Shown here: positions 4,576 to 58,406 of the stretch, piece by piece | Layout of the letters: every line of letters begins with the position of its first letter | Position numbering within the stretch: position 1 is the first letter of the stretch | DNA from: the human T2T-CHM13v2.0 reference genome, Homo sapiens | NCBI RefSeq assembly: GCF_009914755.1 | Contig: NC_060942.1 | Reading direction: 5' to 3' (one strand) | Length of the DNA: 64,000 nucleotides | The notes under the pieces: generated by a model | What the model was told of the DNA's origin: nothing | The model's input: only the letters and a program-made list of their open reading frames with translations | Databases searched by the model: none | Position numbers and translations under genes: made by a program

Positions 4576-6157
4576 ACTTCTTGAGTGTATTTCCAAGGAT
4601 GTAGAGTTAAGCGAATGTTGCTCACGTCACATCATGGAAGTAATCATCCATTTGGAAAGCATCCTTAAGCAGCTTTACAGATCTGGCTAGGCCTTCCCCG
4701 GTGCTTTTATAAAGAGAAGTATTATGCCATTTAATAGTCAACCTTGAGGTGTATTTTTTTATTTTCTTTATTTTCTGGCAACTAGCAAATGTCACATGGA
4801 ATATGATTGGCTTACATTTCATTAGAGTACATAGTAGGTTCTTCTAAGTAATGCTATTCTTGATAAGAAAAACACTTTGAATACTTCAAACTAAAAACTT
4901 ACAAAAATGTAATTCTTAGTTATTGCTTTAATGGAAGAAAGAAACATATTTTTAAATAAAATAAAATTTAAATTATACTGGTGTATATGTGGTATATGTG
5001 TGTGTGCCTATTGTTTCATAGATAATAGCCATTAGTGATAAACAAATGTGTACATCAAGCTACAGATGACATTTTCCACTATGTAGTACGCCTAAGAGGA
5101 TTATACTTTAGAAAAGAAGACTGACCAAGGCCAATGTACCTCTTTATGAACTCAGAAAACTACCATCTTGATATACTGGGGTACCTAATTAATATAGTGT
5201 ATGTCCTGGGATTTTTGTCTGCCCAACATATATTTTCTTTTTTCTCCTGGAAATGATATGCAATTTCCTTTGAAACACATATGCCATTCTCCATGTTGCT
5301 GTGGATTATCAAACACAGTGCTCTTTCCTTTCCCGCAGTAACAGGCATGGGTGTGGAACACAAGCTGGACTAATTGTAATATGGAGTCACCTACAAAGAG
5401 ATGTGTGATGCACCTACTAATCATAAAACGTAGCCAATTACAAGCCTCCCCTGGAATTTTCTGCATTGGAAGATAAAATGTAGTTCTCAATTTCTCTTGG
5501 AATGTGAGCCAAAAATACCTAAGTCTACAACTGTCAGCAACCACCTTTGCTGGTACATGGAGAATCCCCACGTGCATTAGACAGAATGGGACCAGCAGAC
5601 ACAGGATGTAAGAGTTAGTCATGGCATTTTCAAGGAAATATTTCAGATAATAAACTGCCTCAAGAAATGTGATTCAATGAAGGGAAACTGCTTCATCATA
5701 AATTTGCAGATTCCATGTATATAGATAGTATACCTGAATTTTAGTCACAAGAAATGCCTATAATCATTTTGGTTTCCGTTTTGTGGTTACTGTCTATATA
5801 AAAGAAAAGTAGTTCAGACCAAAGCTTCCTGAAATAAAATGAAGTTTTATTTTTGTTGTGAACAGGGAAGTAGGTGATAGCAATCTGTCTTTTCCTGTGA
5901 TGTTGAATATGCTGTTATAGTGTGTCTACTTAAGTCAAAGGGGGTCAGGCATTTTGGATGTCACACTAACAAAGAATGAGTAGAGTTCCGCTTTGTGTCA
6001 TACCAGATTTAAAATAATTAGAATCATACTGTCATAGGACATTAGCAGTTTAAGGAAACTTGGAGGGCATCTTGTGCTTTGAATCTAAACCTCATGTGGG
6101 GATGAGGAGGACACATGTCATTGTGCAGAGATCAACTGAAGTAAATGGCATAGTGAA

Positions 6158-6557
6158 TGATATGGTTTGGCTGTGTCCCCACCCAAATCTCATCTTGAGT
6201 TGTAGTTCCCAATCTCATCTTGAATCTCATCTTGAATTGTAATTCCCATGTATTGTGGGAGGGACCTGGTGGAGGTAATTGAATCATAGGGGCAGTTTCC
6301 CCTTGCTATTCTTGTGGTAGTGAGTAAGTTCTCATGAGATTTCACGGTTTTATAAGGGGCTTCCCCCCTTTGCTCAGTTCTCATTCTTCTGTCTCCTGCA
6401 GCCATGTGAAGAAGGACATATTTGCTTCCCTTGCTGCCATGATTGTAAGTTTCCTGAGGCCAGCCATGCAGAACTGTGAGTCAATGAAACCTCTCTCCTT
6501 TATAAATTACCCAGTCTCGGGTATGTCTTCGTAGCAGCGTGAGAAGGGACTAATACA
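6158..6557 (+). mobile_element. THE1C/D (MaLR) solo LTR
   Basis: Starts tgatatggtttggctgtgtcccc and ends ggactaataca; perfect 5-bp TSD GTGAA at 6153-6157 and 6558-6562. Confidence 0.95.
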
Positions 6558-37265: not shown

Positions 37266-39680
37266 AAAAACTAGCAACATTTTGCCTTGGGTCCTCTGTG
37301 CACACACTGTCGTCTAACTAAATGGTGCAGCAAGTAATTCTTGCTAAACGATTTGCAGAAACTAGCCCTGGCAACTTTCTTCTTGCCCATCAAAACCTTG
37401 GAAATCACTTAATTCCCCTCTCTCACTTTTATCTCCTCTTGTTGATTCCATGCCTGAAATATTTCTCACCTCTTTCCATTTCCCCTATACCAAGGTTTTC
37501 CATGCCCTCTCCTCATCCCTCTTCTTAGCATTCTACTTGGCAGCATGGTTGTATCTGTTCATGATTCATTTCAGTTCCTTCTACCACCACCCTTCAAACA
37601 GCAGTTTTATACCAAGAGTAAAATGGATGTGTTTACAGAGATAACTTTAGAATGCGCTTGCTAACTGTTAGAGGAACATGATATATCACTATACGTTAAA
37701 ATTATCTGAGATGTTAGGGATGTTAATAAAATAAATTGGAAAGAGATGTGCATGCAGGGCCCTTATCATTCAAGATAACATCGGAAGCTCAAAAGCAGAC
37801 TCCCCTGTGTAACTGAGGGGAGCGTTTTACAAGATTAAAATGTTCCAAGCACTGTCGGCTCTGACAATGGCATTAAACAATTTTTCACAAGGGGTGGAAA
37901 TCAAACCAGATCTAATAAGAAAGATCCTTATGTGGCTGCATGATGAGAAGATGAAAGACGCAACTATTGCAGGAAGGATGGCCCTGACATGCAGGGGTGC
38001 CAGGCGATTCACAAAATCCTGCATGGGTGTAAGTTTCCGCCTGACACTTTAATAACAAAAATATCTCTTTTTAACTGGTGTTAGCTTATTTTTCCCTCTG
38101 GCCTTTCTTTTTCTATTTCTTACTGAAAGCAAATAACCTATTATCAACTCCTGATAATATGTGGTGGTTTTAACTTCAGCTCCTGAAGCTGAGTCTTGGG
38201 AACTGATGAATAAGACATTTTTCTTCACGTTCTATTGTGAAAACATTCCTGGTATTTCTCTTATTTCCTGTGCCTTAGAGAACTCAGTAGGGTGCTGAAT
38301 TTCAGTAGAGATACAAATGTACTTGCAAACTTGGCATTGATTTATCATGATCTTTCCTGCAAGGGAAAAATAGAGATTGTTTTTGCTGTACAGACTTCCC
38401 TAGAAGAGTTTGACTTCTAACACCTCTGATGGGTAGTCTAATTGGATTTAGAAGATGGTATGAATCTCTTTTGGCAACAATGAAAGGCACACAGAGGCCT
38501 AAGGGCAGCCATCATTTATTTATTTATAACACATTTTATTTCAAAAAAATGTTAAGCCAATCCCTGCTCCTGAGTCTACATCAATACTTTTGACACGTAA
38601 AAAAACAATATAAATCACAAATTTAATACATTCTCTCTAAGTTTTCCTAATGATATATTCAATGGTCTCATGCCTTCTTTCAAATTAAACAACCTAGTTT
38701 AGTCTCTTCTGTTTTCATGTATGATAACCCGCCTTGCCAATGCACCTGGTCCTTTAAATATCAATCTATATTTTTCCTGAAATGGAGGATACCTAATAAT
38801 TATCTGGAACCAAATAGTGGATTGAATGGAAACTCTGCTGTCCACACCTTTGACAATTATACCACTGGTTCCTCATAAAGGAACCTCCAAATGTCAAAGC
38901 ATAGAAGAAAGAATGAGAACTTTCTGCAGTCCATCATCTGTAATAAAGGAATGTTATGGAATACATGGAGAGAACGCCTGAACACAGCATTGGAAAGTGA
39001 AGAATTTGAATTGTATAGAGTAGAGGACAGATGAGCATCTTTTTAAATTAATTGAATTAACCAAACTTAGTACAGTATTAATAGCCCTTTATGAGAAACA
39101 ATTAAATATAGCAAAAATTGTGGTATTCCAAGGAACTATTCTAAAAGACATACAAATGGAAAGCCTAAGTGTGAATATGCATGCATGATAACTTGGAGAA
39201 AATTCCAAAGTTTGAGTTTTCCAATCCTTGAGGCTGTTCTATTAATAATATTCATCAAAATATTGGTTTCACTCAAAGGAATTGAGACTGTGGCTTCAGA
39301 AGGAAACATTTAACCAGATATATTTATATATTCAACCAGTGGAAAGAAGAAAATACATTACTTCTCTTTCAATAACACAACATCTTTATTTTACCCTTCT
39401 ACCTGGAGGGTACAGATAGAGTCCAGAGGAAAATCAGCTATTTCTGAATTTTTAGGAATGGTATTATCTAATCGTGAGCTACCTGGGGCCGGTGCTAGGG
39501 AGCACAGCGCCCACTTGTGGGCATGCGTAATTTGCCACTGCTCTGTGCAGGTGAATTTAATCAACACCTTTTACCTTCTCCCCAAAGACACCAGCCCACT
39601 AAAATGCATGGGGTTGGGTAGGGGGATGGTGGAGAAGGGTGGGAGAAGGGGCTCTGGATGTACACAAATCATTCGGAAAG

Positions 39681-39975
39681 GCAAACCATCTCTGTTTTGG
39701 AAAATAAAGTTTTATGGACAGCTGTGCCCGTTTGTTTACATATTGTCTGTGGCTGCTTTCACACAACAGAGTTGCATAGTTATGACAGAGAGTAGATTGC
39801 AGAAAAAAGCAAAGATATTCAATGTGTGTCCCTTTACAGAAAAAGTTTGCCAACCTCTGCTTTAAACTCTTAGGTTTACCTGCAAGCCCGTCTGGAGATT
39901 TTCAGAGATCCATTCATCCAATCCTCCAGAATATCAGCAATGTTTCCTTTACATTTGTGATTATGCCTTCCTGCA
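39681..39975 (-). repeat. Left arm of a local inverted duplication (truncated MER58A + ~115 bp of unique flank)
   Basis: Reverse complement of 44304-44602; about 22 substitutions and one A-run indel by manual alignment. Confidence 0.95.
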
Positions 39976-41084
39976 TTTTCTAAAACTGGAGGGAATATTT
40001 ATTTTTTTCAGTGTTATCAGAAGACACTAGAGTCTACATTTGTTAACTCGTTTATGTAAATGGGTGAAAAATCAGAGAGGACCACAGGAAACTTGTATTT
40101 TAAATAGCTTCCAATCACTGAGCCATAGAGAGTGATACCATGATCCAAGCCAAAGAGTGAGTACCGCCCTATAACACCCTCACCCCCAAACCAGGAGGTT
40201 TGAATCTGGGAGCCATAGTCCCAGAGGCATTCTACTGCTGCCACTGCTGATAAACCCAGCTGTCACACCAAGAAGGATCACTTCTCAGACTGACAACAAA
40301 GACTTCGGTGGTACCTACTTGCAGAGGTTGGCAAAAGATGCCACATGGGCCAGGTGTTCACAGCCTATCTCCTCCTCCATAAACAATGCAGGATGTTTTA
40401 TGCTCACAGCAGAGTAATGACTCTAAGAGACTGAATGATTAAATGCCAGTCTGCCAGCCAGAGTACATTTGTTTTCTGCTTGAAAAAGCCACTTTCATTT
40501 TGTATGACAGCTTTCTTAACTGCAACATAGCTCAGAAAATGACAGAGAGCGAATGAGAATAAGTGATTGTAAACTGGCAAACAACTATTTGCTACTATTT
40601 GAACTACCATTAAACTGTTCATTCAATTTCTACTCAGAAGCCATCAGTCAGCTGTGGAACCAGAATGTAAGCATTATTTATTTGGTGGCATTACAATGCC
40701 ATCTAATCTTGGAGAAAATCATTTAGACAAAAATCAGAGTATCCAAAAATTGCCTTGACATTCAGTGGCAAAATGCAATGCTTAACCATAGCTTCTTGCA
40801 TTTCTGTATTTTTTTTTCTCATTATTATTACTGAGATACTTGAATTCCATTCTCATTCCAATATCATGCCTTCAATAGTATCATTTTTCTCACTAGCTGC
40901 CTGTGCAGGCCAGGAATTGTTAACACAGAGCAAAGCTAAAGCTTTGTAAAATGTTCAAGGGCTACTCCTGGCTCCCATTTAGTATCATTCATTTCCTTTG
41001 GGAATATGCCTGTTCACAATTTCCTAAGACAGCCTTGTTCACCATGGAAGAAACAGAAAATGTAAAAACAGTGAGGTCAGCTAC

Positions 41085-41260
41085 CAGGTGCTCTGCCTAC
41101 TTTACCTTATTTAAACCTCTTAATCTTAATGAGGTAGGTAGTTTGCCTCTGTTATAGACAAAAAAGTTGAGGCTTATGTAGGTTAAGGGATTCGCCAAAA
41201 AGTTGGAGCTGGATATCAAGTCTGACTGACCCTAAGTTCATCTTACGAAGTTGCTTCTTA
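41085..41260 (-). mobile_element. MIR relic
   Basis: cttatttaaacctc...atgaggtaggta...gaggctt...ggttaaggga...aagtctgactgac. Confidence 0.6.
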
Positions 41261-41829
41261 AAGGAAGCTAGTGTTATTGCCTGTTCCATCGAAAGTAAAG
41301 AAATTTAAATACTCCAAAGGAGTCGGTATTTATTATGTATATAGATAGGAATTTGAAGTAATGAAATAAATCATGTTTAGGCGAATGTCAGTGTTAGAGT
41401 TCCATATGAGAGTTAATTTTTCATATATTAATACTGGAAGATTATGTCCTTAGTCTAACGATATTGACCACATTGAAATCATGTTTTAGAACATTTTCTA
41501 AGACCCCCTTCATACATGGAGTCACAGGTCTTTTGCTTTTGTTTTTGTCATTTGTTTGCTCATTTGTCTGCTTATTTTTAAAGTTAGCTATTTTTTTCTT
41601 AGCCCTTTATTCTCTCAAAGTGAATTGGTGTTTGATAACAGCTGAATTAATTTGGAGTCAAGTTTAGTGTTAGTGAATAGATCAAATTATTTAATATCAC
41701 TTTGTGTGTAAAAAGGGTTGATCATATGGTGAATGGATGTAAGTTACTGCACCTCATAAATGAAACATTTGAGTATTTATAACACTGTCCTAATGGTTTC
41801 CCAAGGATGTTAATTAGACAAAAAATAAA

Positions 41830-42290
41830 CTTTCTGGAGGATATTTTGGCCATATGTATCAGGAATTTTACATTTTATACATGTTTTAGCACAACAATTC
41901 CATTTATAGAAACTTATGTTAAATAAATAAACAAGATGTATACTAAGATTTTTTTTAGAATACTCATCAGTGCATTATTTGAAAAGGTAAAAATAAAAAT
42001 CAACATATCTAACATGAGACATTAGTCAACTATGTAATAAAATATGTTTTCATTTAAAACAATGTTATAATATGTAATGGTTCAATAAATATACATAATA
42101 TGTTTAAAATATTTTTAAAATTTAGTACAATATACTTCTATTTTTGTGATATCAATATTCTTTATGCATAAATATTATTCTTTAATATGTGAAGAGATGT
42201 ATAATGAAAGAAAAAAATGATGTGTATGTGCATTTTCTCTCCAAATTTTCTGCAGCACATGTGTTAATTTTGTAATGCAAATATTTAAAA
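41830..42290 (+). mobile_element. L1ME-type 3' relic
   Basis: actttctggagga...ttttggc...caattccattt...tttctctccaaattttctgca. Confidence 0.5.
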
Positions 42291-42411
42291 ACCTATTTTA
42301 AAAACTTGATTTGATCTATAGACATAATTTATAAATTTTACAGTGGTAGATAAACCACTGGCTTTAAATAATAGAAACTCATCATAGCACCTTTCAAAAA
42401 TATAGTCTTCA

Positions 42412-44260
42412 TAGACTGGAAGAGAATATTTGCAAAAGATACATTTGATTAAAAACTATTACTCAACACAAAAGAAGAACCCTTAAAACTCTACACTAAG
42501 AAAATAAACAACCTGTTGGAAAAAAATGGTCAAAAGATCTGAATAGACACCTCACCAGAGAAGATACAGGGATGGCAAATAAGCATATAGAAAAATGTTC
42601 AACATCTCATATCATTAGGGAATTGCAAATTAAAATAATGACAAAAATCTAAAACACTAACAACACCAAATGCTGGTGAAGATATGGAGCAATGGGAACT
42701 TTCATTTATTGCTGGTGGCAATGCAGAATGGTACAGCATTTGCAAGACATTTTGGAAGCATTTAGAATGCAGTTTAGCAGTTTCTTACAAAACTGAACTT
42801 TGTCCTACTATTCAATACAGCAGTTGCTCTCCTTGATATTTACATAAGTGAATTGAAAACTATGTCCACACAAAAACCTACACATGAAGGTTTATACTGT
42901 ACTGGCTTTATTCATAATTGTCAAAACTTGGAAGCAAACAAGATGTCCTTCAGTAAGTGAATAAATAAACAAATTGTGGTATAGTCAGACAATGAAATAT
43001 TATTCAGCACTAAAAAGAAATGAGCTATCAAGCCATGAAAGGCCATGAAAAAAACTGACATGCATGTTACTAAATGAAAGAAGCCAATCTTAAAAGGCTA
43101 TATATTATTAAATTTATAATTCCAGCTGTATGACACTCTAAAAAAGTCAAAACTTTGGAGATAATAGAAAAGACCATTGGTTGGCAGGTGTTAAAAGAGT
43201 GGGAGGGATGAATAGGCAGAGCACAGAGAGCTTTTAGGCCAGTGAAAATATTCTGTATGATATTGCAATGGTGGCTACATGAACTATGTTAGCAGTGGAA
43301 ATTATCAGAGTCATATGGCATCAAAATATGTTACCAGCAGCAAATCCGTATGGGTCTGCAGCAACCTCAATTCTTGCCTCTTCAGAAGAAAGAATTTGAG
43401 GGGATTAAAGCAGAGGAGAGACTGAGGCAAGTTTTAGAGCAGGAACAGAAGGAAGGAAGGAAAGCACTTGGAAGAGGGCCAAGTAGGTGACTTGAAAGAC
43501 AAGCATATGGTTTGACCTTTTGACTTGGAGTTTTATGTGTTGGCATAATTCCGGGGTCTTACATCCCTTCTCCCCTCATTCTTCCCTGGAATGGGCTGTC
43601 TGTAAGCATAGTGCCCTGCCAGCACTTTGGAGGGGCTGCATGCAGTATGTTTACTAGAGTTGTATCCATGCTCATTTGAGGTGTTCTTCCCTTACCAGCT
43701 GAATGTCCCCAGAAGGTCATATACTAGTTAAACTCTGCCATTTTGCCTCTTAGTGTGCATGTGTGAGCCCACTCACCCCACTCCTGAAATAGCTTATCGG
43801 GAAGCTTCAGGTGTTTCTGTTTACTGGGAAATGGCCTTTCCCTGGCAGCGGCTGTGACCAATTATTATTTTAGAGAAACAGCTACCAACTGCCTGACCAT
43901 CACCTGATGGTTACCTGACATTCCTGGTATGTGTGGGGTCGGGGTCGGGGGTGGGGGTGGGGGAGCCCTCTTCTGCTCTGCTCATGTCTGACTAGTTACT
44001 TCCTGTAACAATTATATGTTTGTCAAACCCATAGATTATACAATACTAGTAGTAAACCCTTATTAAACCCTTACATAAACTATAGTGTTTGGTTGATGAT
44101 GTGTCAATGTAGGTTCATCACCTATAACAAATGTACCACTGTGGTTTGGGATGTCGATAGTGAGGGCAGCTAAATATGTGTGGGAACAGGAAGTATATGG
44201 GAACGCTCTGTGCTGTTGCTTAATTTTACTGTAAATCTAAAGCTGCTCTTAAAAAAATCC
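42412..44260 (+). mobile_element. L1MC1-like 3' portion interrupted by MER50
   Basis: agactggaagagaatatttgca...gagctatcaagccatgaaa...gtcaaacccataga...aaatctaaagctgctcttaaaaa. Confidence 0.85.
43287..44010 (-). mobile_element. MER50-like (ERV1) solo LTR
   Basis: TG...CA ends; minus strand reads cagacatgagcagagcag...ccatcaggtgatggtcaggcag...ctctaaaataataattggtc; 4-bp TSD a(c/t)ta. Confidence 0.85.
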
Positions 44261-44303
44261 AACTTCATTAATTTTTAAAACATAAATCCTTAAACTGTTT
44301 ATT

Positions 44304-44602
44304 TGCAGGAAGGTATAATCACAAATGTGAAGAAAACATTGCTGATATTCTGGAGGGTTAGCTGACTGGATCTCTGAAAATCTCCAGACGGGCTTGTGGG
44401 TAAATCTATGAGTTTAAAGCAGAGGTTGGCAAACTTTTTCTGTAAAGGGACACGCATTGAATATCTTTTTTTTTTTTTTTCTGCAATCTGCTGTCTGTCA
44501 TAAGTATGCAACTCTGTTGTGTGAAAGCAGCCGTAGACAATATGTAAACAAATGGGCATAGCTGTCCATAAAACTTTATTTTCCAAAACAGAGATAGTTT
44601 GC
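44304..44602 (+). repeat. Right arm of the local inverted duplication
   Basis: Reverse complement of 39681-39975. Confidence 0.95.
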
Positions 44603-44611
44603 AAATCCCTG
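44420..44611 (+). mobile_element. MER58A with both termini and intact TSD
   Basis: cagaggttggcaaac...tttgcaaatccctg; perfect 8-bp TSD gtttaaag at 44412-44419 and 44612-44619. Confidence 0.9.
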
Positions 44612-45978
44612 GTTTAAAGCAAGGGATGGGAATGTGGTATGGAAAGCATGACTTAAGTGTATACCAAAGCTTTGGAAGGGGTGAGAGGAGTTCTGCTCAC
44701 TGGGAGGCTGATGGGGAGCTGGAAGAAAAGATGGATTCCTTGGGTCTCAAAAAAAGTTCTGTTAGGTTCTAGGTAATTGCAAATAAGTCTTAGTTCTCTC
44801 GAATAATACCAACAGATGTTCAATTTATTTTCCAGGAACTGGAAATGAAATCCTTCGAAGAAAAAACAGAGGGTTGGGAAATGGTAAAAGGTAACTTAAC
44901 ACTATTCTTTAACTTTCTCAGAGGGCAACTTGGAATAATAGCAACAAGGAAAATACTGAATCACTAATTTCCCAGAATTCAGCTACCTCAAAATAGAATC
45001 TCCTATCAGTCTAATCATTGCCTAAATCAAAGCATTACTTTTTACCAAGGAGTTAGAGGAGAAGAGCCAGAGTCCCGCAGAAGTAGAACATACTTAAAAT
45101 GAAAAGTGAGATGTATTGTATGGCAGAATTACATAAGATTTGCTGTTATTGGATTCAAGTTGACCTAATACTACCTTTCCAGTTTGTATAATACTTACTC
45201 AACTCTTTATAATTCTTTAAAAATGATTTGATAAAAATCCCATTCAGAGTATTATTACATTAGATGAGACATTAATTTTCTTGTTAAACCTCAGAAATGT
45301 GCAACTGAATTCCTTTAGGTATTTAGAACACTCTTAATTATATCTTTAAGATTTATTTTTTCAGTTTTATTACAAAACAAAAGTGTAAATTTAAAAAGAT
45401 AAATTGGAACTATAAAAATAGACAAGATAAAACTCATACATGATACATTCTCTACATGAGTAAATATCCTAATTAAAAGTGAGATTCAATCACCATATAT
45501 AATTCCAAAGATGTCTACTAAAGCCAGAACTGGAATGATAATTAGAGATAAAGATTTGTTTAAATGTTCTGTCTTTAAATATTTTTATATTATTGTGTAT
45601 AATGGCCCTCCCATATTAATAAGAATCAAAGTAGAATTCAACTCCTACAGGTGAGCCTGGTCAAATGTCCCCATTCAAGGACATCTTCATGTCAGTACAT
45701 GCATGGATAAGATTCATTTTGTCCATGCCCTGGCATAGAGTTTTCGATGAGTTCGTGTTTCTGCAGGATCAGTGGGCTATAGTCATGTAGTTATGACTAT
45801 AACTCTGCTTGCCTAGCTAGCTAACTACTCTCATTTCTAGAATCAAAAGAGAAAAATGTCTATGTATGAGAATAGAGTTGCCCTTCTGGATTTCAAGAAT
45901 ATGACAAATGTGGGTTATTTCATTAGTATTTTGAAAAGGTTGTCAATATTCTACCTCAGAATGAATGTAGATCTATGG

Positions 45979-46333
45979 TATATTAGTCCATTTGCATGCT
46001 GCTGATAAATATATACCTGAGACTGGGAAGAAAAAGAGGTTTAATTGGACTTACAGTTCCACATGGTTGAGGAGGCCTCAGAATCATGGTGGGAGGTGAA
46101 AGGCACTTCTTATATGGCAGTGGCAAGAGAAAATGAGAGAGATGCAAAAGCGAAAATCCCTGATAAACCCATCGGATCTCATGAGACTTATTCACTACCA
46201 CAAGAACGGTATAAGGGAAACTGTCCCCATGATTCAAATTATCTCCCACCAGCTCCCTCCCACAACACGTGGGAATTATGGGAGAGCAGTGCAAGATGAG
46301 ATTTGGGTGGGGACACAGAGCCAAACTATATCA
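45979..46333 (-). mobile_element. THE1A/B solo LTR
   Basis: tattagtcc...gggacacagagccaaactatatca; TSD TATGG at 45974-45978 and 46334-46338. Confidence 0.95.
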
Positions 46334-47760: not shown

Positions 47761-48546
47761 AGCATTAATGCCTCATCAAAAATACAAGCTATACAGTAAT
47801 AGATGACTTACAGGCACTTACATAGACATTTCTCTGTGTTAAGTTGCCATTCTATTTAATTTTCTCTGGTTCTCTATATGTATATCCATATACAGAAACA
47901 CACACAGAGATGTATAATCAAATATATTTCCTGAATGCATTCTTGTAAAGAACTTCAAATTCACATAATCTGATATATCATTACATGTAAAATAAGGACA
48001 TTAGCAAGATGGCGGAGTAGGAGATGTCAGCCTTCAATACCCAACAAAAAAATCACACAGCTATCCACGAACAAAAATAGCCTTGAGAGGACTCAATAGT
48101 TCTTACAAAGGCACAAATAACTTACATTCGTGAAAGAGCACCCTCTTCAATAGATGGTGCTGGAAAAATTGGATATACATATGCAGAATAATGAAACTGT
48201 ACCGCTATTTCTCACCACATTAAAAAATTAACTCAAGATGAATTAAATACTTAAATGTAAGACCCAAAACTATAAAACTATTAGAACAAAACATAAGAAA
48301 AACACTTCAGGACATTAGTCTACCCAAAGATCTTATGGCTAAGACCTCAAAAGCACAGACAAAAAAAAAAAACCCAAAATAGACAAATGGGAGTATATTA
48401 AACTGAAAAGTTTCTGCACAGCAAATGAAACAACCAGCAACCTGTTGAATGGGAGAAAATATCTGCAAGCTGTTCATCAGACAAAAAAACTCATATCTAG
48501 AATATACAAGAAACTCAAACAATTTGAGTGCAAAAATCAAATAGTC

Positions 48547-48850
48547 TGCCAGGTGTAATGTCTCATGCTTATAATCCCAGCACTTTAGGAGGCCGAGGCA
48601 GGAGGATTGCTTGAGCCCAGGAGTTCAAGACAAGCCTGGGCAATGTAGCCAGACCCCGTCTCTACAAACAAATAGAAAAAGTAGCCTATGGTGGTGCATG
48701 GCCTAGAGTCCCAGCTACTCAGGAGGCTGAGGTGGAAGGGTCACTTGAACCCAGGAGTTTGAGGATAGAGTGAGCTATGATGCTGCCACTGTACTCCAGC
48801 CATTTTAAGATACAGAGTGATATCCTGTATCTTTAATAATATTAATAATG
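48547..48850 (+). mobile_element. AluJ
   Basis: ggaggattgcttgagcccaggagttc and gagctatgat are AluJ diagnostics. Confidence 0.9.
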
Positions 48851-49682
48851 ACAAAACAATGCCACTAAAAAGTGGGCAAAGGACATGAATAGACATTTCT
48901 CCAAAGAAAACATATAAATGGCTAACAGGTATATGAATGAATACTCAACAGCACTAATCATCAGAGAAATGCAAATCAAAGCCACAATGAGATATCATCA
49001 TACCCCAGTTAGAATGGCAAGGAAGTAGAGAAAAGGAAACTCTCATTCACTGTTGGTGGGAATATCGCTTCACTACAGCCACTATGAAAAATAGTATGGA
49101 GATTTCTTTAAAAACTAAAAATAGAACTATCATATCCAGCAATCCCACTATTGGGTATTTATATAAAGGAAAATCATTATATCAAAGGGTAACCTGCACT
49201 TCCATGTTTACTGCAGCGCTCTTTACAACAGCAATGAAATGGAATCAACCTAATATCCACTAACAAATGAATACATAGAGAAAATCTGGTATACATACAC
49301 CATGGAGTACGATTCAGCCACAGCAAGGAATGAAATCACGACATTTGCAGCAACATGGATGAAACTGAAATTAATTATGTTAAGTGAAATAAGCCAGACA
49401 CAGACAAATTTTGCATGTTCCCAGTCATATATGGGAGCTAAAATGTTGATCTTATGAAGGTGAGAGTAGAATGATATCAAAGACTGGACAGAGTGTGTGG
49501 GCAGGAGGAGTGGAGGAGTGGATGAAGACAGGTTAGTCAGTGGGCTATAAACATACAATTTCATAGAAGGGATAAATTCTAATGTTCAATATCAGAATAG
49601 GGTGACTGTAGTTAGCAACAATGTATTGTATATTTCAAAGGAGCTAGAAGAGAGTTCCCAACACATAGAAATGGTAAATACT

Positions 49683-49953
49683 GGCCAGTTGCAATGGCTT
49701 ATGCCTGTAATCCCAGCAGTTTGGGAGGCCAAGGTGGGAGGATCACTTGAGGCCAGGAGTTTGAGACCAACTGGGGTCAACATAGTGAAACCCCATCTCT
49801 ACCAAAAAAAAAAAAAAAAAAGTTGGTGCATGCCTATGGTCCCAGCTACTCAAGAAGCTGAGGGAGTTTGAGGCTGCAGTGAGCCATTATCATGCCACTG
49901 CACTCCAGCCTGTGTGACAGAGTGAGACCCTTTCTTTAAAACAAAAGAACAAA
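49683..49953 (+). mobile_element. AluJ with right-arm deletion
   Basis: TSD agaaatg(g/a)taaatact at 49667-49682 and 49954-49969. Confidence 0.9.
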
Positions 49954-50651
49954 AGAAATGATAAATACTCAAGGTGATGTATAATTTGAAAACCCTGACT
50001 TGATCATTACACATTCTATGCATGTAACAAAATATCACATGTACTCCATAAATACGTAAAATATCATGTATCAATTAAAATTTTAAAAAGAATTTACAGT
50101 AACACAGTGGAGCAAAAAAAGAAGAGCACTTCACAGAGAGAATCACTGGGGAGACTGGTATACCTGCAGTGTGTGGAATGGCTAGGAACAAAAAAGAATG
50201 ATAGAACTATATAAGCTATGGGGTGGGTGCCACTGGGTGGTCCTCTGTTGCTCACCCTGCAGAGAACCCTGGGAGACTTTGACACTGAAGACTTCAATGG
50301 TTCCAGTGACAACCACCCCAGCATTCACAGAAGAGGACTCCATAGTGTTTGTTGACAATGACCACAGTGGCCCCCTCTTTAGAGGTCACTGGCAGCATTT
50401 ATCACTGAGGTAATCAACAGCCATCACTGCCATGGGCCCCATGGAAATGGAGTTGATGCTGCACACCGCAGCAGGACCTGCTGTTGTACCACATCAGAAC
50501 ACAGGCTACCACCTCCCCCATGCCACAACTCCACATACACTCTGAACCCAGAGCCATAGCTGCTCTGAATGACCTTCATTCCAGAAACCAGCTCTGTAGC
50601 TGCTCTATGTGTGTACCTGTGCTTCATAACTTGCCTCCGAAAAACTCTGTG

Positions 50652-51011
50652 TATGTTAGTTTCTTCTCATGCTGCTATGAAGAAACACTGAGACTAGGTA
50701 ATTTATAAAGGTAAGAGATTTAATTGATTCACAGTTCTGCAGGGCTGGGGAGGCCTCAGGAAACTTATAATCGTGGCAGAATGGGAAGCAAAGACATCCT
50801 TCATCACATGGCAGCAGCAAGGAGAAGAATAATTGCCCAGCAAAGGGGAAAGCCCATTATAAAATTGTCAGATCTCATGAGAACTAACTCACTATCACAA
50901 GAAAAGGATAGAGGAAACCGCCATCCACCTGGTCCCTCCCACTACATGTGGGCATTATAGGAACTACAATTCAAGATGAAATTTGGGTGGGAACACAGCC
51001 AAACCATATCA
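50652..51011 (-). mobile_element. THE1C/D solo LTR
   Basis: Ends acacagccaaaccatatca; TSD CTGTG at 50647-50651 and 51012-51016. Confidence 0.92.
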
Positions 51012-51999
51012 CTGTGCATACCTGCATCTCAGGCACTGAAGCAGTCACCACTATGAACTAGCTGGTGCCCCCAGATAACAGAGCAGCTGTCGTTCTGAGT
51101 GCCTGTGCTTCAGACTCTAGTTTCTTGACTGTTCCATGAGTGCCTGTACGTGAGACACCAGTGCCACAACCACCAGAAGGCTTTCTGCAAACACTCATCC
51201 CCAAGAGGGATACCAAGGACCATAACCTCCCCTGTGCAAGAAATAACTAATAGGAGAATCTTAACAGTCTTAAGATTGGGGTCATAACTTAAGACCCCAA
51301 CAGCTCTCACTGCTGCTGTGGTCATCTGCAGCCTTGGTCATGGACGCTTCAATCTTCACCAAATTTGATCTTAGCTGACAGAACTGCATGAAGGCTATGC
51401 CATTGGGCCTTCCCAGGAGCTGGAACTACCACACCTCACCCAGCCAGTGCTTTCCCACTGACCCACAGATGTCCCCATCAAAACTAGTCTATGATTTCTG
51501 GAACAGGTGACTCCTCCATCAAACATGCAGACATTAATCCAAGACTAAAAGAGACACACACACACAAATCAAGAAAACATGACAACACCAGAAGAACACA
51601 ATAGCTATCTAAAAACAGACCACAAAGAAATGGAGATGTACAAATTTCCAGAGAAAGAATTCAAAGTAATATTTCAAGGAAGCTCAGTAAACTACAAGAG
51701 AACATAAACAACTCAATAAAATCAGAAAAATTCAATAAATGAGAATTTTGTAAAAAAATAGGAATTATATAAAAGGAACAGTCTAGAGCTAATAATACAA
51801 TTATGAAATGAGAAATGCAATAGAAAGCAGCAACAGCAGACTTGATCAAGCAGAAGAAATGATTTGTGAAATCAAAGGCAAATCATTTGAAATTATCCAT
51901 TTAGAGGAAACTAAATGAAGAGGAATAAAATAAGTAAAGAAAACCTACATGTATTTTGGGATATAATCTGTGAAGTAATATTTACATAATGGGATTTTT

Positions 52000-52950
52000 G
52001 TTTGCTTGTTTGTTTCAAGTTATAAGGTTTATTGAACAGAAGTCAGCTGGCTCAGTGTCAGTGTGTAACCTTATCAGAAAAGATGATCAAATATTTTTCA
52101 TGATTTCCAACTCCATTCACATTGGGGCTTCTCCATGCTAGTTAACATAAAAACTGAAATATATAATTGTATTATTATGAAGTCTTATTTTTGCTTAAAT
52201 TATTTAATAGTGAAACAAATTACTGATTATCATGTTCCATTTTTAATCAAAAAGCTTATTTTGAAGTAAGCATTTTAATAATATATTAGGCATGTGATTA
52301 CGTACATTTTGTCATATATCTTATTTTAATTTTTAATATTTAAATTTGTAACATAGTCTTATTTCATTGGATTATTTAATGTCACGTTTTCTGTATCTTT
52401 GAGAGATGACACTGGTTTTCTGTTTTTGGCCTTCCTCTCCTTCCCTAGTGCCTTGACTCAGGACTTCAGGAGCTAGGAAGGCTGTAAAAACACAGTATGG
52501 TTGTGGACTGTGCATAGTGTATGGACAGGATGGGAGGAGAGCAGTGAGAGGAGGCAGCTGAGAATGACTTCCATGTTCTTGCCCTGGGAGACTGGACAAT
52601 GGGACTGCCATTTGCCACGTCTGGAAATGTATACCAAGACCCCAGAGGTTGGGAGAGTGGGCATAAAGTTGATGTATTTTGTGTAACAAGCAGCTTGAGT
52701 TTGATTGTCCATAGAGCATTCAGCAAAAATATTCAATTGACAGTAGGAAATAGGGATTTGGAGATCCAGGAGAGAGGTCTGGGTTGGTAGGGGGTATGTG
52801 AAAATCATTCATTTGCAAGGGCTAAAATAAAGCAGTGGATGTTGAGGAACTCAGCTGATGAGATTCTGAATGCCAAGAAGGGTAATTGGATGGAATCCAG
52901 AGAACACCCAGTACTGAATAGGCAGAGATGCCATGGATAAGGAGGAAAGC
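52000..52950 (-). other. Non-L1 transduced/retroposed segment with AATAAA and degenerate poly-A tail; includes an L2 relic (~52430-52870)
   Basis: TTTATT at 52028-52033 lies 12 nt from a T-rich tail (52000-52015); the segment interrupts host L1 ORF1. Confidence 0.75.
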
Positions 52951-53572
52951 CTATAGTATTTTATCCCTTGCTCCTCTCCCACCCTTCCCCCCAAGTCCCC
53001 AAAGCCCATTGTATCATTCTTATGCCTTTGCATCCTCATAACTTAGTTCCCACATATCAGTGAGAACATCCAATGTTTGGTTTTCCGTTCCTGAGTTATC
53101 TCACTTAGAATAATAGTCTCCAATCTCATCCAGGTCACTGTGAATGCCATGAATTCATTTCCTTTTATGGCTGAGTAGTATTTCATTGTGTGTGTATATA
53201 TACAAATGTATATACATTTACATATGTGTATATATACATATACACATATATGTATATATGTGTATATATAAATATAAATATATATATACACACACATATA
53301 TACATATATATCCATTGTATTTATATATATATACACACACACATATATATACATATATATATCCATTGTGTATATATATACACAATGGAACCAACCCAAA
53401 TGTACATCAGTCAAGTGAATAAAGAAACTGTGATATATATATATATACACACACAATTGATATATATATATATATATTCATTACATATATATATATCACA
53501 GTTGGATATATATATATATCCATAGTGTGTATATATGTGTATATATATATATCCATTGTGTGTGTGTGTGTC

Positions 53573-53624
<52 letters not shown>

Positions 53625-53915
53625 TCACAGTTTCTTTATCCACTTGTTGATTGACGTACATTTGGGTTGGTTCCACCGTTTTGCAATTGTGAATTGTACT
53701 TGTTGAAGCATACATGTGCAAGTATCTTTTTTGTATAATGACTTCTTTTCCTCTGGGTAGATATATACCCAGGTGTATAATGTATACCAGGTGTATAATG
53801 ACTTCTTTTCCTTTGGGTAGATGCAGTAGTGGAATTGCTGGATCAAACAGTAGTTCTACGTTTAGCTGTTTATAGAATATCCACACTGTTTTCCATAGTG
53901 GTTGTACTAGTTTAC
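52951..53915 (-). mobile_element. L1PB fragment with expanded (TA/CA)n array and internal inverted duplication
   Basis: L1PB 3'UTR (ccccaagtccccaaag...ttatgcctttgcatcctcata) and ORF2 end ([18 protein letters not shown]). Confidence 0.88.
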
Positions 53916-56895
53916 ATTTTTAAAAGGAGAACAGAAAGAGAAAGAAAACAAAAAGCTTATTTAATAGAACAATGGCTAAAAACTTCCCAGATCTGGAGAG
54001 AGATATGGACATCCGAAACATAAAACGTAGTCACATACAGAGGTTCTGTCCAGTTAAAAGAGGAAATTCACCAAGGGACATTAAAATAAAACTGTCAAAA
54101 ATAAAAACAAAGAATTGTGAAGCAGCAAGAGAAAAGAAGCTCTTCTCATACAAGGGAATACTGATTTCAGCAGATTTCTCAGCAGAAACCTTGCAGGCCA
54201 GGATAGAGTGAGATAACATATACAAGGTGCTGAGAAAAGAAACTGTCAACCAAGAATATTTTGCTCAAAATATCTGCCCTTCAGAAATGAAGGAGAGATA
54301 AAAACTTTCAGGCAAATAAAAGCTGAGAGACCTCATCACCACTGGAATTGCCTTGAAGAAATCCTGAAGGAATTTCTTCAAGCTGAAACAAAATGATACA
54401 AATTAGTAACATGTAAATATGTGAAAGTATAAAACTCACTGGTAAGGAAAATGTATATTCAAATTCAGCATACCCTAATAATGTCTTGGTGATATATAAA
54501 TCACATAACTCTAGCATAAAGGCTAAAAACAAATTTATTGGAAAAATTATAACTAAAATAATTACGTAATGAATACACAATATAAAAATTGTAAATAGCA
54601 ACATCAAAAACATAAATGGGGGTAAGGTTAAAGGACAGAGTTTTTATACATAATCAAAGTTATTTTATTAGCATAAAATAGACTGTTAAATTTTTTTTGT
54701 AAGTCCCATGGTAACCACACAAAGCAAAAACCTGTAGTTACACATAGAAGATAAAGACAAAGTAATCAAAGCATATCAATATGGAAAAATATTCAAATCA
54801 CAAAGGAAGATGTAGCAAGAGATGAAGAAAAAAAACAAATAAATACAAAGCAGCCAGAAAGCAATGAAGATAATGGGACTAGTAAGTTCTTACCTATCAG
54901 TAATTACTTTTAAGGTAAATTGATTAAATTCTCCAATCAAAGACAGAGTGTCAGAATGGATAAAAGAACAAGACTTAACTATTTTCTGCCTACAAGAGAC
55001 TTTCTTCAGCTTTAAAGACATGGATAGGCTGAAAGTGAAGGATGGAAGAAAGATATTCCTTGTCATTGGAAAGCAAAAGAGAACAGGGGCAGCTATACTT
55101 ATATCAACTATGATAGGCTTTAAAAAAAAATATAAAAAGAGACAAAGAAAATTATAATATAAAGATAAAGGGGTCAATTCAAGAGAATATAACAATTTTA
55201 AATATATATGCACCTAAACTTGGAACATTTAAATATAATATGCAAATATTAACAAATCTGAATGTAGAAATAGACACCAACACAATAACACTAGGATACT
55301 GTAATATCTTACTTTCAGCAATAGATAGATCATCCAGATATGAAATCAATAAGGAACCCTGGACTTCAGTTACACTTTAGACCAAATCAACTTAATAAAC
55401 ATACACAGAACATTTAATCCAACAGCAGTAGAATGCACATTTTTCCGAAGTGCATGCAGAAAATTCTCCAGGACTGATCATATGTTAGGTCACAAAACAA
55501 GTATTTAGAATTTTTAAATATTAGAACATATCAAATATGTCTCCCAACCACAATGATATGAAACTAGAAATCAATAATAGGAGGAAAGCTAGAAAATTTA
55601 CAAATAAGTGGAAATCAATCATCACACTCTTGAATAATTAATGGGTAAAAGAAGGAATCAAAAGACAAAAAAATGTTGAGACACATGAAAATGGAAACAC
55701 AACATATCAAAATATTTGGGATGTAGCCTTTATACCTCAAGGAACTAGAAAAAGAAGAAAAAGCTAAGCCCAAAGCCAGCAGAAAAAAGAAAATAACAAA
55801 GATCCAGAACAGAAGCAAAGGAAATACAGACATGAAAAGCAGTAGAAAAGATTAGCAAAACTAAGAGCTGGTTTTTTGAAAAGACAAAATCTACAAAGCT
55901 TTAACTAGACTAAGAAAAAAGAGAGAAAACTCAGATAAATCAGAAAGAGGAGACATTACAATTGATATTGCAGAAATAAAAATAATTATAAAAACTACTA
56001 TGTGCAATTACAGCTAACAAATTAGATAATGTAGAAGAAATGAATAAATTCCTTAAAACACACACCCTGCCAAAACTGAATCAGAAAGAAATAGAAAATC
56101 TGAATAGACCTATAAGAATTCAGGAGATTGAATTAGTAATCAAATATCTTCCAACATAGAAAAGTCCAGGACCAGATCACTTCATGAGTGGTTTCTCCGA
56201 AATATTTAAAAAGAAATGCCAATCCTTCTCAAACTTTCCCAAAAAAATTGAAGAAGAGGAAACACTTCCAAACTTGTTTTACAAGGCCAATATTATCCTG
56301 ACACCAAAAGCAAATAAGGGCACTATGAGAAAAGAAAATTACAGGTCAATAATTCTAATGAATAGATGCAAATATCCTCAACAAAATAGTAGCAAAATAA
56401 ACTCAACAACATATTAAGAGGATAATTCACCATAACCAATGTGATATTTCCCTGAGATGTAAGCATTTACCAGAACAATTAGGCAAAAAAAGAGAAAGAA
56501 ATAAAAGGCATCCAGATCAGAAAAAAAAGTAAAATTATCTCTGTTTGCAGATGACATGATTCTATATACAGAAAATACTGAAGCATCCACACAGAAAAAA
56601 TTATCACAAATAAATATAGTAAACTTGTAGGATACGAAATTAACATACTAAATGAGTTGCATCTCTATACATTAATAACCCGATATCTAAAAGAGAAATT
56701 AAGAAAGCAAGACCATCTACGGTAGCATCAGAAACAATAAAACACTTAGGATAAATTTAACCAAGGAGGTGAAAGATCTGTGTACTGAAAGTTGTAAAGC
56801 ATTGATGAAAGAAGCTGAAGAAGACAAAAATAAATGAAAACATATCATTGTTTTGGGATTGAGAGAATAAATATTATAAAAATATCCATATTATC

Positions 56896-57323
56896 TGTGA
56901 TGGTTAATACTGAGTGTCAACTTGATTGGACTGAGGGATACAAAGTATTAATCCTGGTGTGTCTGTGAGGGTGTTGCCAAAGGAGATTAACATCTGAATC
57001 AGTGGGCTGGGGAAGGCAGACCCACCCTTAATCTGGGGGACACCATCTAATCAACTTCCAGTCATTATAAAGCAGGAGACAAATGTGAAAAGGAGAGACT
57101 GGCCTAGTCTCCTAGCCTACATCTTTCTCCATGCTGGATGCTTCCCGCCCTCGAACATCGGACTCCAGGTTCTTCAGTTTTGAGACTCGGACTGGCTCTC
57201 CTTGCTCCTCAAATTTGCAGACAGCCTATTGTGGGACCTTGTAACCATGTAAGTTGATAGTTAAGAAACTCACATACATGTATATTACCTATTCTGTCCC
57301 TCTAGAGAACCCTAAGTAATACA
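56896..57323 (+). mobile_element. MLT2A (ERVL) solo LTR
   Basis: tgtgatggttaatactgagtgtcaacttgattgga...tctgtccctctagagaaccctaagtaataca. Confidence 0.93.
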
Positions 57324-57404
57324 CTGCCCAACGTGATCTACATATTCAATGCAGTCCCTATGAAAATTTCAATGGCATTTTTCACAGAAATGAAAAGGAA
57401 ATTT

Positions 57405-57693
57405 GGTCCGGCATGGTGGTTCATACCTGTAATCACAGCATTTTGGGAGGCTGAAGTGGGAGTATGACTTGAGGTAGGGAGTTTGAGAAGAGCCTGGCCA
57501 ACATGGTGAAACCCCATCTCTACTAAAAATACGAAAAATTAGCTGGGCAAGGTGGCACGCACCTGTACTCCCAGCTACTTGAGAGGCTGAGATGGGAGAA
57601 TCACTTGAACCTGAGAGGTGGAGCTGAGATCATGCCACCACACTCCAGCCTGAGCTACAGAGTGAGACTCCATCTCAAAAAGAAAAAAAAAAA
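57405..57693 (+). mobile_element. Alu (S/Jb-like)
   Basis: Dimeric Alu with A tail inside L1 ORF2. Confidence 0.92.
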
Positions 57694-57974
57694 GAAAATC
57701 GTAAAATTCATATGGAACCATAAGACTCTATAAATACAAGCAATCTTGAGAAGAATAAAGCTGAAGGCATCATGCTTCATGCAACTGTATCACAAAGCTA
57801 TAGTTATTAAAATAGGATCATGGCATAAAAATAGACATTAGAGCAATAGAACAGCATAGAGAGCCCAGAAATAAAACCAAGGGTGCCAAGAATGCACAGT
57901 GACAAAAGGATAGTCTCTCTAATAAATGATGTTGGGAAAACTATACATCCACGTGACAAAAAAGAAAAAGAAAA

Positions 57975-58406
57975 GCAAAGACTTGGAACCAACCCAAATG
58001 TCCAACAATGATAGGATGGATTAAGAAAATGTGGCACATATACACCATGGAATACTATGCAGCCATAAAAAAGGATGAGTTCATGTCCTTTGTAGGGACA
58101 TGGATGAAGCTGGAAACCATCATTCTCAGCAAACTATCGCAAGGACAAAAAAACAAACACCGCATGTTCTCACTCATAGGTGGGAATTGAGCATGAGAAC
58201 ACTTGAACACAGGAAGAGGAACATCACACACCGGGGCCTATCATGGAGTGGGGGGAGGAGGGAGGGATAGCATTAGGAGATATACCGAATGTAAGTGATG
58301 AGTTAATGGGTGCAGCACACCAACATGGCACATGTATACATATGTAACAAACCTGCACGTTGTGCATATGTACCCTAAAACTTATAGTAAAAAAAATTAA
58401 AAAAAA
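57975..58406 (+). mobile_element. 5'-truncated L1PA4/5-like element
   Basis: gcaaagacttggaaccaacccaaatg...gtaacaaacctgcacgttgtgca...poly-A. Confidence 0.93.

What the first reader, a model, noticed from the sequence alone, without database searches (positions are those of the whole stretch)
39681..44602. Inverted ~295-bp duplication bracketing a 4.3-kb segment: candidate polymorphic or recurrent inversion
Seen: 39681-39975 is the reverse complement of 44304-44602, about 92% identical by manual alignment, with a longest perfect run of 44 bp. The duplicated unit is most of a MER58A plus ~115 bp of unique flank, and both arms appear to share the same deletion relative to the remembered MER58A consensus. 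So these are not two independent insertions of an ancient MITE. The right copy keeps both termini and the 8-bp TSD gtttaaag, while the left copy lacks the terminal cagggattt, so the left outer junction is derived. Inference: an inversion made by staggered breaks or template switching left inverted duplicates that can re-flip 39976-44303 by NAHR. From memory, this resembles a catalogued ~4.3-kb human inversion at 2q22.1 (InvFEST HsInv0040); that identity is unverified.
Basis: partly seen in the sequence, partly recalled or inferred. Interest (0 to 1): 0.8.

Follow-up and report, generated by a model that had tools for sequence, protein, structure and literature searches.

The report
Old inverted 295-bp duplicate pair near DCC

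Summary
39681-39975 is the reverse complement of 44304-44602: 273 of 299 columns match, the longest perfect run is 44, and blastn gives E about 1e-120. Both arms descend from one insertion of a hAT-like MITE plus 108 nt of flank. That flank occurs only twice in the whole T2T genome. In the MITE part the arms share 3 deletions and 28 derived substitutions against 28 other family copies. The right arm is the parent; the left outer junction is derived.

K2P divergence is 0.079 +/- 0.017, roughly 20-55 Myr. Differences are split evenly between the arms, and there is no conversion tract.

HsInv0040 lies on chr2 and has 755-bp, 99.9% identical repeats; this window is on chr18. A T2T-coordinate inversion callset of 41 genomes lists two chr18 inversions, neither here.

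Whether the 4.3-kb spacer was ever inverted cannot be tested here, because the junction flanks are unique and no outgroup genome is available. The geometry fits the commonest human class, an inverted duplicate under 1 kb placed within 5 kb. It also fits a staggered-break inversion. This is an ordinary, fixed, probably inert structural fossil.

The parts
39681..39975 (+). Left arm, the derived copy (295 nt). It holds the element lacking its first 9 nt (39681-39859), the inner TSD ctttaaac (39860-39867) and a 108-nt unique flank (39868-39975).
   Evidence: The outer junction 39680|39681 falls inside the element, so it is a novel junction.
44304..44602 (-). Right arm, the part of the parental locus that was copied (299 nt). 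It holds the 108-nt flank (44304-44411), the inner TSD (44412-44419) and the element from 44420 to 44602.
44420..44611 (-).
   Evidence: The termini match 12 of 15 by eye and 25 of 31 by blastn. It belongs to a dispersed family with 713 first-look candidates.
44612..44619 (-). Outer 8-bp target-site duplication. It matches the inner TSD at 44412-44419 perfectly and is absent from the left copy.
39976..44303 (.). 4,328-nt spacer between the arms. Its ancestral orientation is unresolved.
   Evidence: Its first 345 nt are unique genome-wide. It contains only old repeats and no Alu-like match.
42412..43290 (+). LINE-1-like ORF2 C-terminal remnant and start of the 3' region. It continues at about 44016-44280 after a nested insert.
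   Evidence: Frame translations (recognition of ORF2 motifs is recalled). 8,358 first-look candidates genome-wide; all 41 scored non-self rows are 69-78% identical. Pfam found nothing.
43291..44015 (+). About 725-nt dispersed repeat nested in the LINE remnant.
   Evidence: 2,073 first-look candidates; the long non-self rows are 74-78% identical.
39381..39680 (+). Unique sequence abutting the novel left outer junction.
   Evidence: 1 of 1 genome-wide match is itself.

Best explanation
This is a fixed fossil of one local inverted duplication. About 20-55 million years ago (point estimate 33-40 Myr), a 295-bp stretch at 44304-44602 was copied in inverted orientation and joined between 39680 and 39976, 4.3 kb from its parent. 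The stretch comprised most of an already resident hAT-like MITE, its inner target-site duplication and 108 nt of unique flank. The most likely route is two template switches at a stalled or broken replication fork, or end-joining capture of a copied fragment. Under this reading the spacer 39976-44303 keeps its original orientation. Both junctions look blunt, with no recognisable microhomology. Since then the two arms have drifted apart independently. The pair is too short and too diverged to drive homologous exchange at an appreciable rate, and it has no evident function.

Shown: single origin, direction of copying (right to left), age range, absence of a conversion signal, and absence from the inversion catalogues examined. 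Inferred: that the spacer was not inverted, and the replicative mechanism.
For: Single origin. The 113-nt query (5 nt of TSD plus the 108-nt flank) matches 2 places in the 3.1-Gb genome, both arms (2 of 2 candidates scored). The arms are 92% identical, whereas full-length copies of the same family are 70-73% identical to them. The median among the 28 other copies is 70.3%. Within the homologous part the arms share 3 gaps (8, 4 and 6 columns) where at least 60% of the 28 copies have residues. They also share 28 derived substitutions in 171 identical columns.

Direction. The right copy has both termini and a perfect 8-bp TSD; the left copy starts 9 nt inside the element.

Age and independence. 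K2P is 0.079 +/- 0.017. The 11 differences in the MITE part polarise as 5 on the right arm, 4 on the left and 2 ambiguous. The longest perfect run of 44 equals the random expectation of 44.3 (P = 0.45).

The spacer was already present. Its LINE remnant and nested repeat are 69-78% identical to their genomic relatives, so they are far older than the arms. There is no Alu-like match inside it.

Class prior. In passages of Sudmant et al. [quoted passage not shown] That is this geometry.

Fixed, not polymorphic. Table S1 of PMC10150506 (T2T coordinates, 41 genomes) has 2 chr18 inversions, at 12.31 and 28.05 Mb, and none at 52.49 Mb. Its T2T-versus-GRCh38 orientation table has 3 chr18 regions, none here. 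All 16 occurrences of 'chr18' were seen.
Against: Nothing in the sequence shows that the spacer kept its orientation. The flanks of all three junctions are unique in the genome, so no repeat element bridges a junction. A search for the LINE's target-site duplication and strand-composition skew were both uninformative. The preference over the inversion model therefore rests on class frequencies among human polymorphisms, not on this locus. Inversions with a one-sided inverted duplication of this size are well documented in Drosophila (median 321 bp). CNV-flanked inversions (dupINV, INVdup) are a recognised human class. No microhomology is visible at either junction, which is not what a microhomology-primed template switch predicts, although tens of millions of years of mutation could hide 1-3 nt.
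Confidence: 0.55

Rival explanations
1. Ancient fixed inversion with a one-sided breakpoint duplication (staggered-break or dupINV/INVdup type). The ancestral order was A, then the reverse complement of 39976-44303, then the right arm. Two nicks or breaks 295 nt apart at the right end, plus one break at 39680, were filled in and rejoined. This inverted the 4.3 kb and left the 295-bp stretch at both ends in inverted orientation.
For: The present structure is exactly what this model predicts. It has inverted duplicates of ancestrally single-copy sequence at both ends of the segment, one intact parental outer context and one novel outer junction. Ranz et al. 2007 (PMC1885836, abstract and passages) found 17 of 29 Drosophila inversions with such duplications. 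In 12 of these, sequence from only one breakpoint was duplicated; the median size was 321 bp and the range 46 bp to about 1.9 kb. Collins et al. 2017 (PMC5338099, passages) list dupINV and INVdup among human complex variant classes. The blunt junctions suit end joining.
Against: Among validated small human events, inverted duplications without inversion are reported far more often: 54% of 229 sites, against 5% 'more highly complex'. No orientation evidence could be extracted from the locus.
Confidence: 0.33
2. The pair is an active substrate for non-allelic homologous recombination, so 39976-44303 is polymorphic in humans or has flipped recurrently in primates.
For: Repeats of about 300 bp can mediate inversions. 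Lee et al. 2008 (PMC2603318, sections 7 and 15 read) found 28 Alu-mediated inversions between human and chimpanzee. HsInv0040 has a similar layout, with 755-bp repeats made of unique sequence plus TEs around 3.6 kb.
Against: There is no call at chr18:52.49 Mb in the T2T-coordinate callset of 41 genomes. None of the 45 genotyped inversions is on chr18: 0 occurrences in the features table, against 2 for chr17 and 1 for chr19 as controls. No row with these coordinates appears in the stored part of the HGSVC3 tables or the gibbon inversion tables; both files were cut when stored. The 24 validated NAHR inversions have repeats of 654 bp to 24.2 kb, whereas this arm is 295 bp at 91-92% with a longest identical run of 44. 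Most Alu-mediated inversions are under 1 kb, and inversion size scales with repeat length. The arm differences are evenly split and randomly spaced, so there is no sign of exchange.
Confidence: 0.04
3. Two independent insertions of the same MITE family that happen to lie in inverted orientation.
For: The family is abundant (713 first-look candidates).
Against: Homology continues 116 nt beyond the element, through the same TSD, into a flank found only twice in the genome. The arms share 3 deletions and 28 derived substitutions. They are 92% identical against about 70% for other family pairs.
Confidence: 0.005
4. Assembly artefact in the T2T assembly.
For: None found.
Against: The arms differ at 22 substitutions and one indel, which is not what a collapsed or chimeric join of one sequence gives. 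The region is not among the T2T/GRCh38 orientation discrepancies on chr18.
Confidence: 0.01

Closest known systems
'Inverted Dup' class of the 1000 Genomes phase 3 structural-variant map (Sudmant et al. 2015, PMC4617611; passages read)
   Same: The duplicated stretch is under 1 kb (295 bp), inverted, and placed within 5 kb of the parental copy (4,328 nt between arms). It is not a retrotransposition product.
   Different: Those are segregating human variants defined against a reference. This one is fixed (as far as the catalogues examined show) and about 8% diverged. Whether its spacer is uninverted could not be tested.
Staggered-break inversions with inverted breakpoint duplications (Ranz et al. 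2007, PMC1885836); human dupINV/INVdup complex variants (Collins et al. 2017, PMC5338099)
   Same: Inverted duplicates of ancestrally single-copy sequence bracket a segment. The duplicate size sits near the Drosophila median (321 bp), and one-sided duplication is common there (12 of 17 or 18; the paper's counts vary between passages).
   Different: Inversion of the bracketed segment is the defining feature and is untested here. The Drosophila cases are large chromosomal inversions, not 4 kb.
HsInv0040 (InvFEST; Giner-Delgado et al. 2019, PMC6748972, Supplementary Data 1, 6 and 12)
   Same: Inverted repeats made of unique sequence plus TE fragments bracket a few kb.
   Different: It lies at chr2:138.72 Mb (hg18), not chr18. 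Its repeats are 755/756 bp at 99.9% identity, against 295/299 bp at 91-92% here. It is polymorphic, with a single origin dated at about 0.9 Myr. Here no polymorphism is catalogued and the arms are tens of Myr old.
Retrotransposon recombination-mediated inversions (Lee et al. 2008, PMC2603318)
   Same: Inverted repeats of about 300 bp bound a segment.
   Different: There the repeats are independent Alu or L1 insertions that later recombined, mostly across less than 1 kb for Alu. Here the repeats are two copies of one locus created by the event itself, and no recombination between them is evident.

Membership tests
NAHR-mediated polymorphic inversion (InvFEST type) | Inverted repeats flanking the segment | tested here: met
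   295/299-nt arms with 4,328 nt between them.
NAHR-mediated polymorphic inversion (InvFEST type) | Repeat length and identity within the range of validated cases (>90% identity, 654 bp to 24.2 kb) | tested here: not met
   Identity of 91-92% is just inside the range. Length of 295 bp is less than half the shortest case, and the longest identical run is 44.
NAHR-mediated polymorphic inversion (InvFEST type) | Both orientations segregate in humans | tested here: not met
   No call in the T2T-coordinate callset of 41 genomes. None of the 45 genotyped inversions is on chr18. Nothing in the stored part of the HGSVC3 tables. Rare alleles are not excluded.
HsInv0040 | Same genomic locus | tested here: not met
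   HsInv0040 is at chr2:138,720,715-138,725,814 in hg18, with tag SNPs on chr2. The window is contig C18:52,452,001-52,516,000.
Local inverted duplication ('Inverted Dup', Sudmant 2015) | Duplicated stretch <1 kb in inverted orientation within 5 kb of the alternate copy | tested here: met
   295 nt, inverted, 4,328 nt between copies.
Local inverted duplication ('Inverted Dup', Sudmant 2015) | Copies derive from one parental locus, not from separate mobile-element insertions | tested here: met
Local inverted duplication ('Inverted Dup', Sudmant 2015) | Sequence between the copies keeps its ancestral orientation | not testable with these tools
   This needs an outgroup genome. The junction flanks are unique, and the internal tests were uninformative.
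Inversion with breakpoint inverted duplication (staggered break; dupINV/INVdup) | Inverted duplicates of ancestrally single-copy sequence at the two ends, in the size range 46 bp to 1.9 kb | tested here: met
Inversion with breakpoint inverted duplication (staggered break; dupINV/INVdup) | Bracketed segment inverted relative to the ancestral state | not testable with these tools
   Perfect 8 of 8, at 44412-44419 and 44612-44619.
   12 of 15 terminal bases by eye; 25 of 31 by blastn.
   713 first-look candidates, 40 scored, on many chromosomes.
   No repeat library (Dfam or Repbase) is on hand. The name is recalled.

The most novel reading that the evidence does not exclude
The pair marks a Drosophila-style staggered-break inversion fixed in an early catarrhine ancestor. 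Its self-made 295-bp repeats have since allowed the 4.3-kb segment to flip again in some primate lineage or in rare human haplotypes. That would be a case of an inversion creating the substrate for its own later toggling at the very lower limit of repeat size.
Probability: 0.04. Interest if true: 0.5.

Novelty: new member of a known kind. Interest (0 to 1): 0.2.

Why it matters
It matters little for biology. The structure lies in a gene desert about 46 kb upstream of DCC, with no annotated gene or functional element in the window (hub annotation), and it appears fixed and inert. Its value is methodological. It is a clean, datable example of how a short inverted repeat pair in the human genome can be the product of a rearrangement rather than its cause. 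It also shows that 'inverted duplicates bracket a segment' does not by itself establish an inversion, let alone a recurrent one. If an outgroup comparison showed a true inversion, it would be a small primate instance of the staggered-break mechanism best known from Drosophila.

Tried and rejected
1. Repeat continuity across junctions, to tell inversion from simple inverted insertion. The 300 nt left of 39681 and the 345 nt right of 39975 are each unique in the genome, so no element bridges a junction.

2. Target-site duplication of the LINE remnant that ends about 25 nt from 44303. Matches were no better than shuffles for either candidate 3' flank.

3. Strand-composition skew of the spacer versus its flanks. 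The background skew is near zero, so this was uninformative.

4. Homology beyond the arm ends. There is none above shuffle level.

5. Pfam on the LINE-like frame read through stops as X. It found 0 families, so the LINE-1 label rests on recalled ORF2 motifs and copy number.

6. A 15-nt exact match to the element's terminus at 40321-40335. The surrounding 261 nt are unique genome-wide, so I treat it as chance.

7. Primate orientation from the literature. Supplements of the primate structural-divergence preprint and the ape T2T paper could not be read. The gibbon inversion tables had no row starting 5228, 5229 or 5249 (one file unsearched, one cut). These leave the outgroup question open.

8. 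HGSVC3 tables. There was no coordinate match, but the file was cut when stored, and my GRCh38 coordinates are estimates from a recalled DCC start. This is weak evidence only.

9. The search of earlier findings was not open.

10. The word 'staggered' in Aguado et al. 2014 refers only to restriction enzymes, so it is irrelevant.
Full report
OBSERVATION. The repeat finder returns two adjoining inverted pairs. A gapped local alignment merges them into 39681-39975 (295 nt) against the reverse complement of 44304-44602 (299 nt). The alignment has 273 identical of 299 columns, 22 mismatches (16 transitions, 6 transversions), one 4-nt gap inside an A run, and a longest perfect run of 44. Within the window blastn gives E = 2e-120. 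The next best hit to the arm, at E = 0.015, is the element's own terminal inverted repeat. Homology ends abruptly at both ends: flank-versus-flank alignments score at shuffle level.

ANATOMY. Read on the minus strand, the right locus is laid out as follows:
- outer TSD ctttaaac (44612-44619);
- a complete 192-nt element (44420-44611) whose termini are inverted repeats (12 of 15 by eye; 25 of 31 by blastn);
- the same 8-nt TSD again (44412-44419);
- 108 nt of flank (44304-44411).

An 8-bp TSD plus terminal inverted repeats is the signature of a hAT-type non-autonomous element. The name MER58A is recalled and could not be tested, because no repeat library is available. The left arm starts 9 nt inside the element. 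It therefore lacks the terminus and the outer TSD, then runs through the inner TSD (39860-39867) and the 108-nt flank to 39975.

ONE ORIGIN, NOT TWO INSERTIONS. The window's own 3.1-Gb assembly could be searched.
- The 113-nt query 39863-39975 (5 nt of TSD plus the flank) has two matches genome-wide, namely the two arms (2 of 2 candidates scored).
- The element belongs to a dispersed family with 713 first-look candidates, of which 40 were scored. Apart from the two arms, the 39 listed rows are 70-86% identical, except for one 35-nt piece at 94%. Full-length copies are 70-73% identical, against 92% between the arms.
- I aligned all 28 fetched family loci with the two arms. Inside the homologous part the arms share 3 gaps (8, 4 and 6 columns) where at least 60% of the 28 copies have residues. 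A fourth shared gap lies outside the left arm's homologous part and does not count.
- The arms share 28 substitutions away from the family majority among 171 identical columns. The median identity among the other copies is 70.3%.

AGE AND SUBSEQUENT HISTORY. The Kimura distance between the arms is 0.079 +/- 0.017. Long-term primate rates of 1.0-1.2e-9 per site per year are a recalled figure. With them the distance gives 33-40 Myr, with a range of about 19-56 Myr. That places the event around or before the split of apes and Old World monkeys. A slower rate would make it older.

The 11 differences in the element part polarise as 5 on the right arm, 4 on the left and 2 ambiguous. Some of these are CpG sites, where a majority rule is unreliable. 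If the 23 differences fell at random, the expected longest identical run is 44.3 +/- 11.7. The observed 44 has P = 0.45. There is therefore no sign of gene conversion or other exchange between the arms.

THE SPACER. 39976-44303 (4,328 nt) begins with unique sequence. It also holds two old repeats:
- a LINE-1-like ORF2 C-terminal remnant and 3' end on the plus strand (42412-43290 and about 44016-44280);
- a roughly 725-nt dispersed repeat (43291-44015) that splits the LINE remnant.

Genomic relatives of both are only 69-78% identical, so both predate the duplication. Nothing Alu-like lies inside the spacer. The two copies were therefore about 4.3 kb apart from the start.

INVERSION OR NOT. Two histories give the present structure.

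(b) The ancestral order was A, spacer, right locus. A 295-bp inverted copy of the right locus was inserted between 39680 and 39976, and the spacer never inverted.

(a) The ancestral order was A, reverse-complemented spacer, right locus. A break at 39680, plus a pair of breaks 295 nt apart at the right locus, inverted the spacer and left the 295 bp at both ends.

Each history needs three breakpoints or two template switches, and each leaves the same blunt-looking junctions. I tried to separate them in three ways:
- Repeat elements bridging a junction: impossible, because the flanks are unique.
- The LINE's target-site duplication: no signal.
- Strand skew: background is near zero.

The locus itself is therefore silent, and no outgroup genome is reachable with these tools.

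The literature gives priors. [quoted passage not shown] That geometry is exactly this one. On the other side, 17 of 29 Drosophila inversions carry inverted breakpoint duplications. These are often one-sided, with a median of 321 bp, and are attributed to staggered breaks (PMC1885836, abstract and passages). CNV-flanked inversions (dupINV, INVdup) are also a named human class (PMC5338099, passages). I put (b) at about 0.55 and (a) at about 0.33.

POLYMORPHIC OR RECURRENT? The evidence is against it.
- HsInv0040 is at chr2:138,720,715-138,725,814 (hg18). It has 755/756-bp repeats of 99.9% identity around 3,589 bp, a single origin and an age of about 0.9 Myr (PMC6748972 Supplementary Data 1, 6 and 12). 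It is nevertheless a different chromosome.
- None of that paper's 45 inversions is on chr18: 0 occurrences in the features table, against 2 for chr17 and 1 for chr19 as controls.
- Its 24 NAHR inversions have repeats of 654 bp to 24.2 kb at more than 90% identity. This arm is 295 bp.
- In the T2T-coordinate inversion callset of 41 genomes (PMC10150506, Table S1) chr18 has two entries, at 12.31 Mb and 28.05 Mb. The table of T2T/GRCh38 orientation differences has three chr18 regions, at 12.1, 20.6 and 20.8 Mb. None is near 52.49 Mb. All 16 'chr18' occurrences were seen.
- The stored parts of the HGSVC3 tables and the gibbon inversion tables hold no matching coordinates. Both files were cut when stored, and my GRCh38 coordinates are estimates, so these count for little.
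- Lee et al. 2008 show that inverted Alu pairs of about 300 bp can recombine. They found only 28 such events between human and chimpanzee. Most span less than 1 kb, and inversion size scales with repeat length and identity (sections 7 and 15 read). For one particular 92% identical pair 4.3 kb apart the expected rate is therefore very low.

I found no paper describing this locus. Searches were aimed at inversion catalogues rather than at the locus by name, so absence from print is not established.

VERDICT. The inversion is unproven and is the less likely of the two origins. The recurrent or polymorphic reading is unsupported, and identity with HsInv0040 is refuted. The feature is an ordinary, old, apparently fixed footprint of a small break-repair event in a gene desert upstream of DCC, and a new instance of a known kind. 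An outgroup alignment would settle the one open question in minutes.

Noticed in passing
window 43291-44015: A dispersed repeat of about 725 nt is nested inside the LINE-1-like remnant. It has 2,073 first-look candidates, and the long copies are 74-78% identical. The family was not named, because no repeat library is available.
   Followed up: partly
window 43935-43965: A G-rich run of GGGGT/GGGGGT-like units lies inside the nested repeat. It is a possible G-quadruplex motif.
   Followed up: no
window 40321-40335: A 15-nt exact match to the MITE terminus. The surrounding 261 nt are unique genome-wide, so it is probably chance.
   Followed up: yes
window 44466-44480 vs 39806-39817: The only indel between the arms is in a mononucleotide run. 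The right arm has about 15 T on the plus strand, where the left arm has 6 A followed by GCAAAG. This is likely run-length slippage after the duplication.
   Followed up: no
loci L007-L034 (other family copies): One pair among the 28 other MITE copies is 98.6% identical, far above the 70% median. Two of the loci, L017 and L033, lie about 123 kb apart on contig C2, which suggests a recent segmental duplication. I did not check which pair it is.
   Followed up: no
window 45978-46333, 6157-6555, 50651-51011: Three copies of another dispersed repeat at 68-71% identity, just right of the finding.
   Followed up: no
window 48001-58000: Strong negative T-A skew (-0.14 to -0.32 in most 2-kb bins). This is probably long A-rich LINE sense strands.
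   Followed up: no
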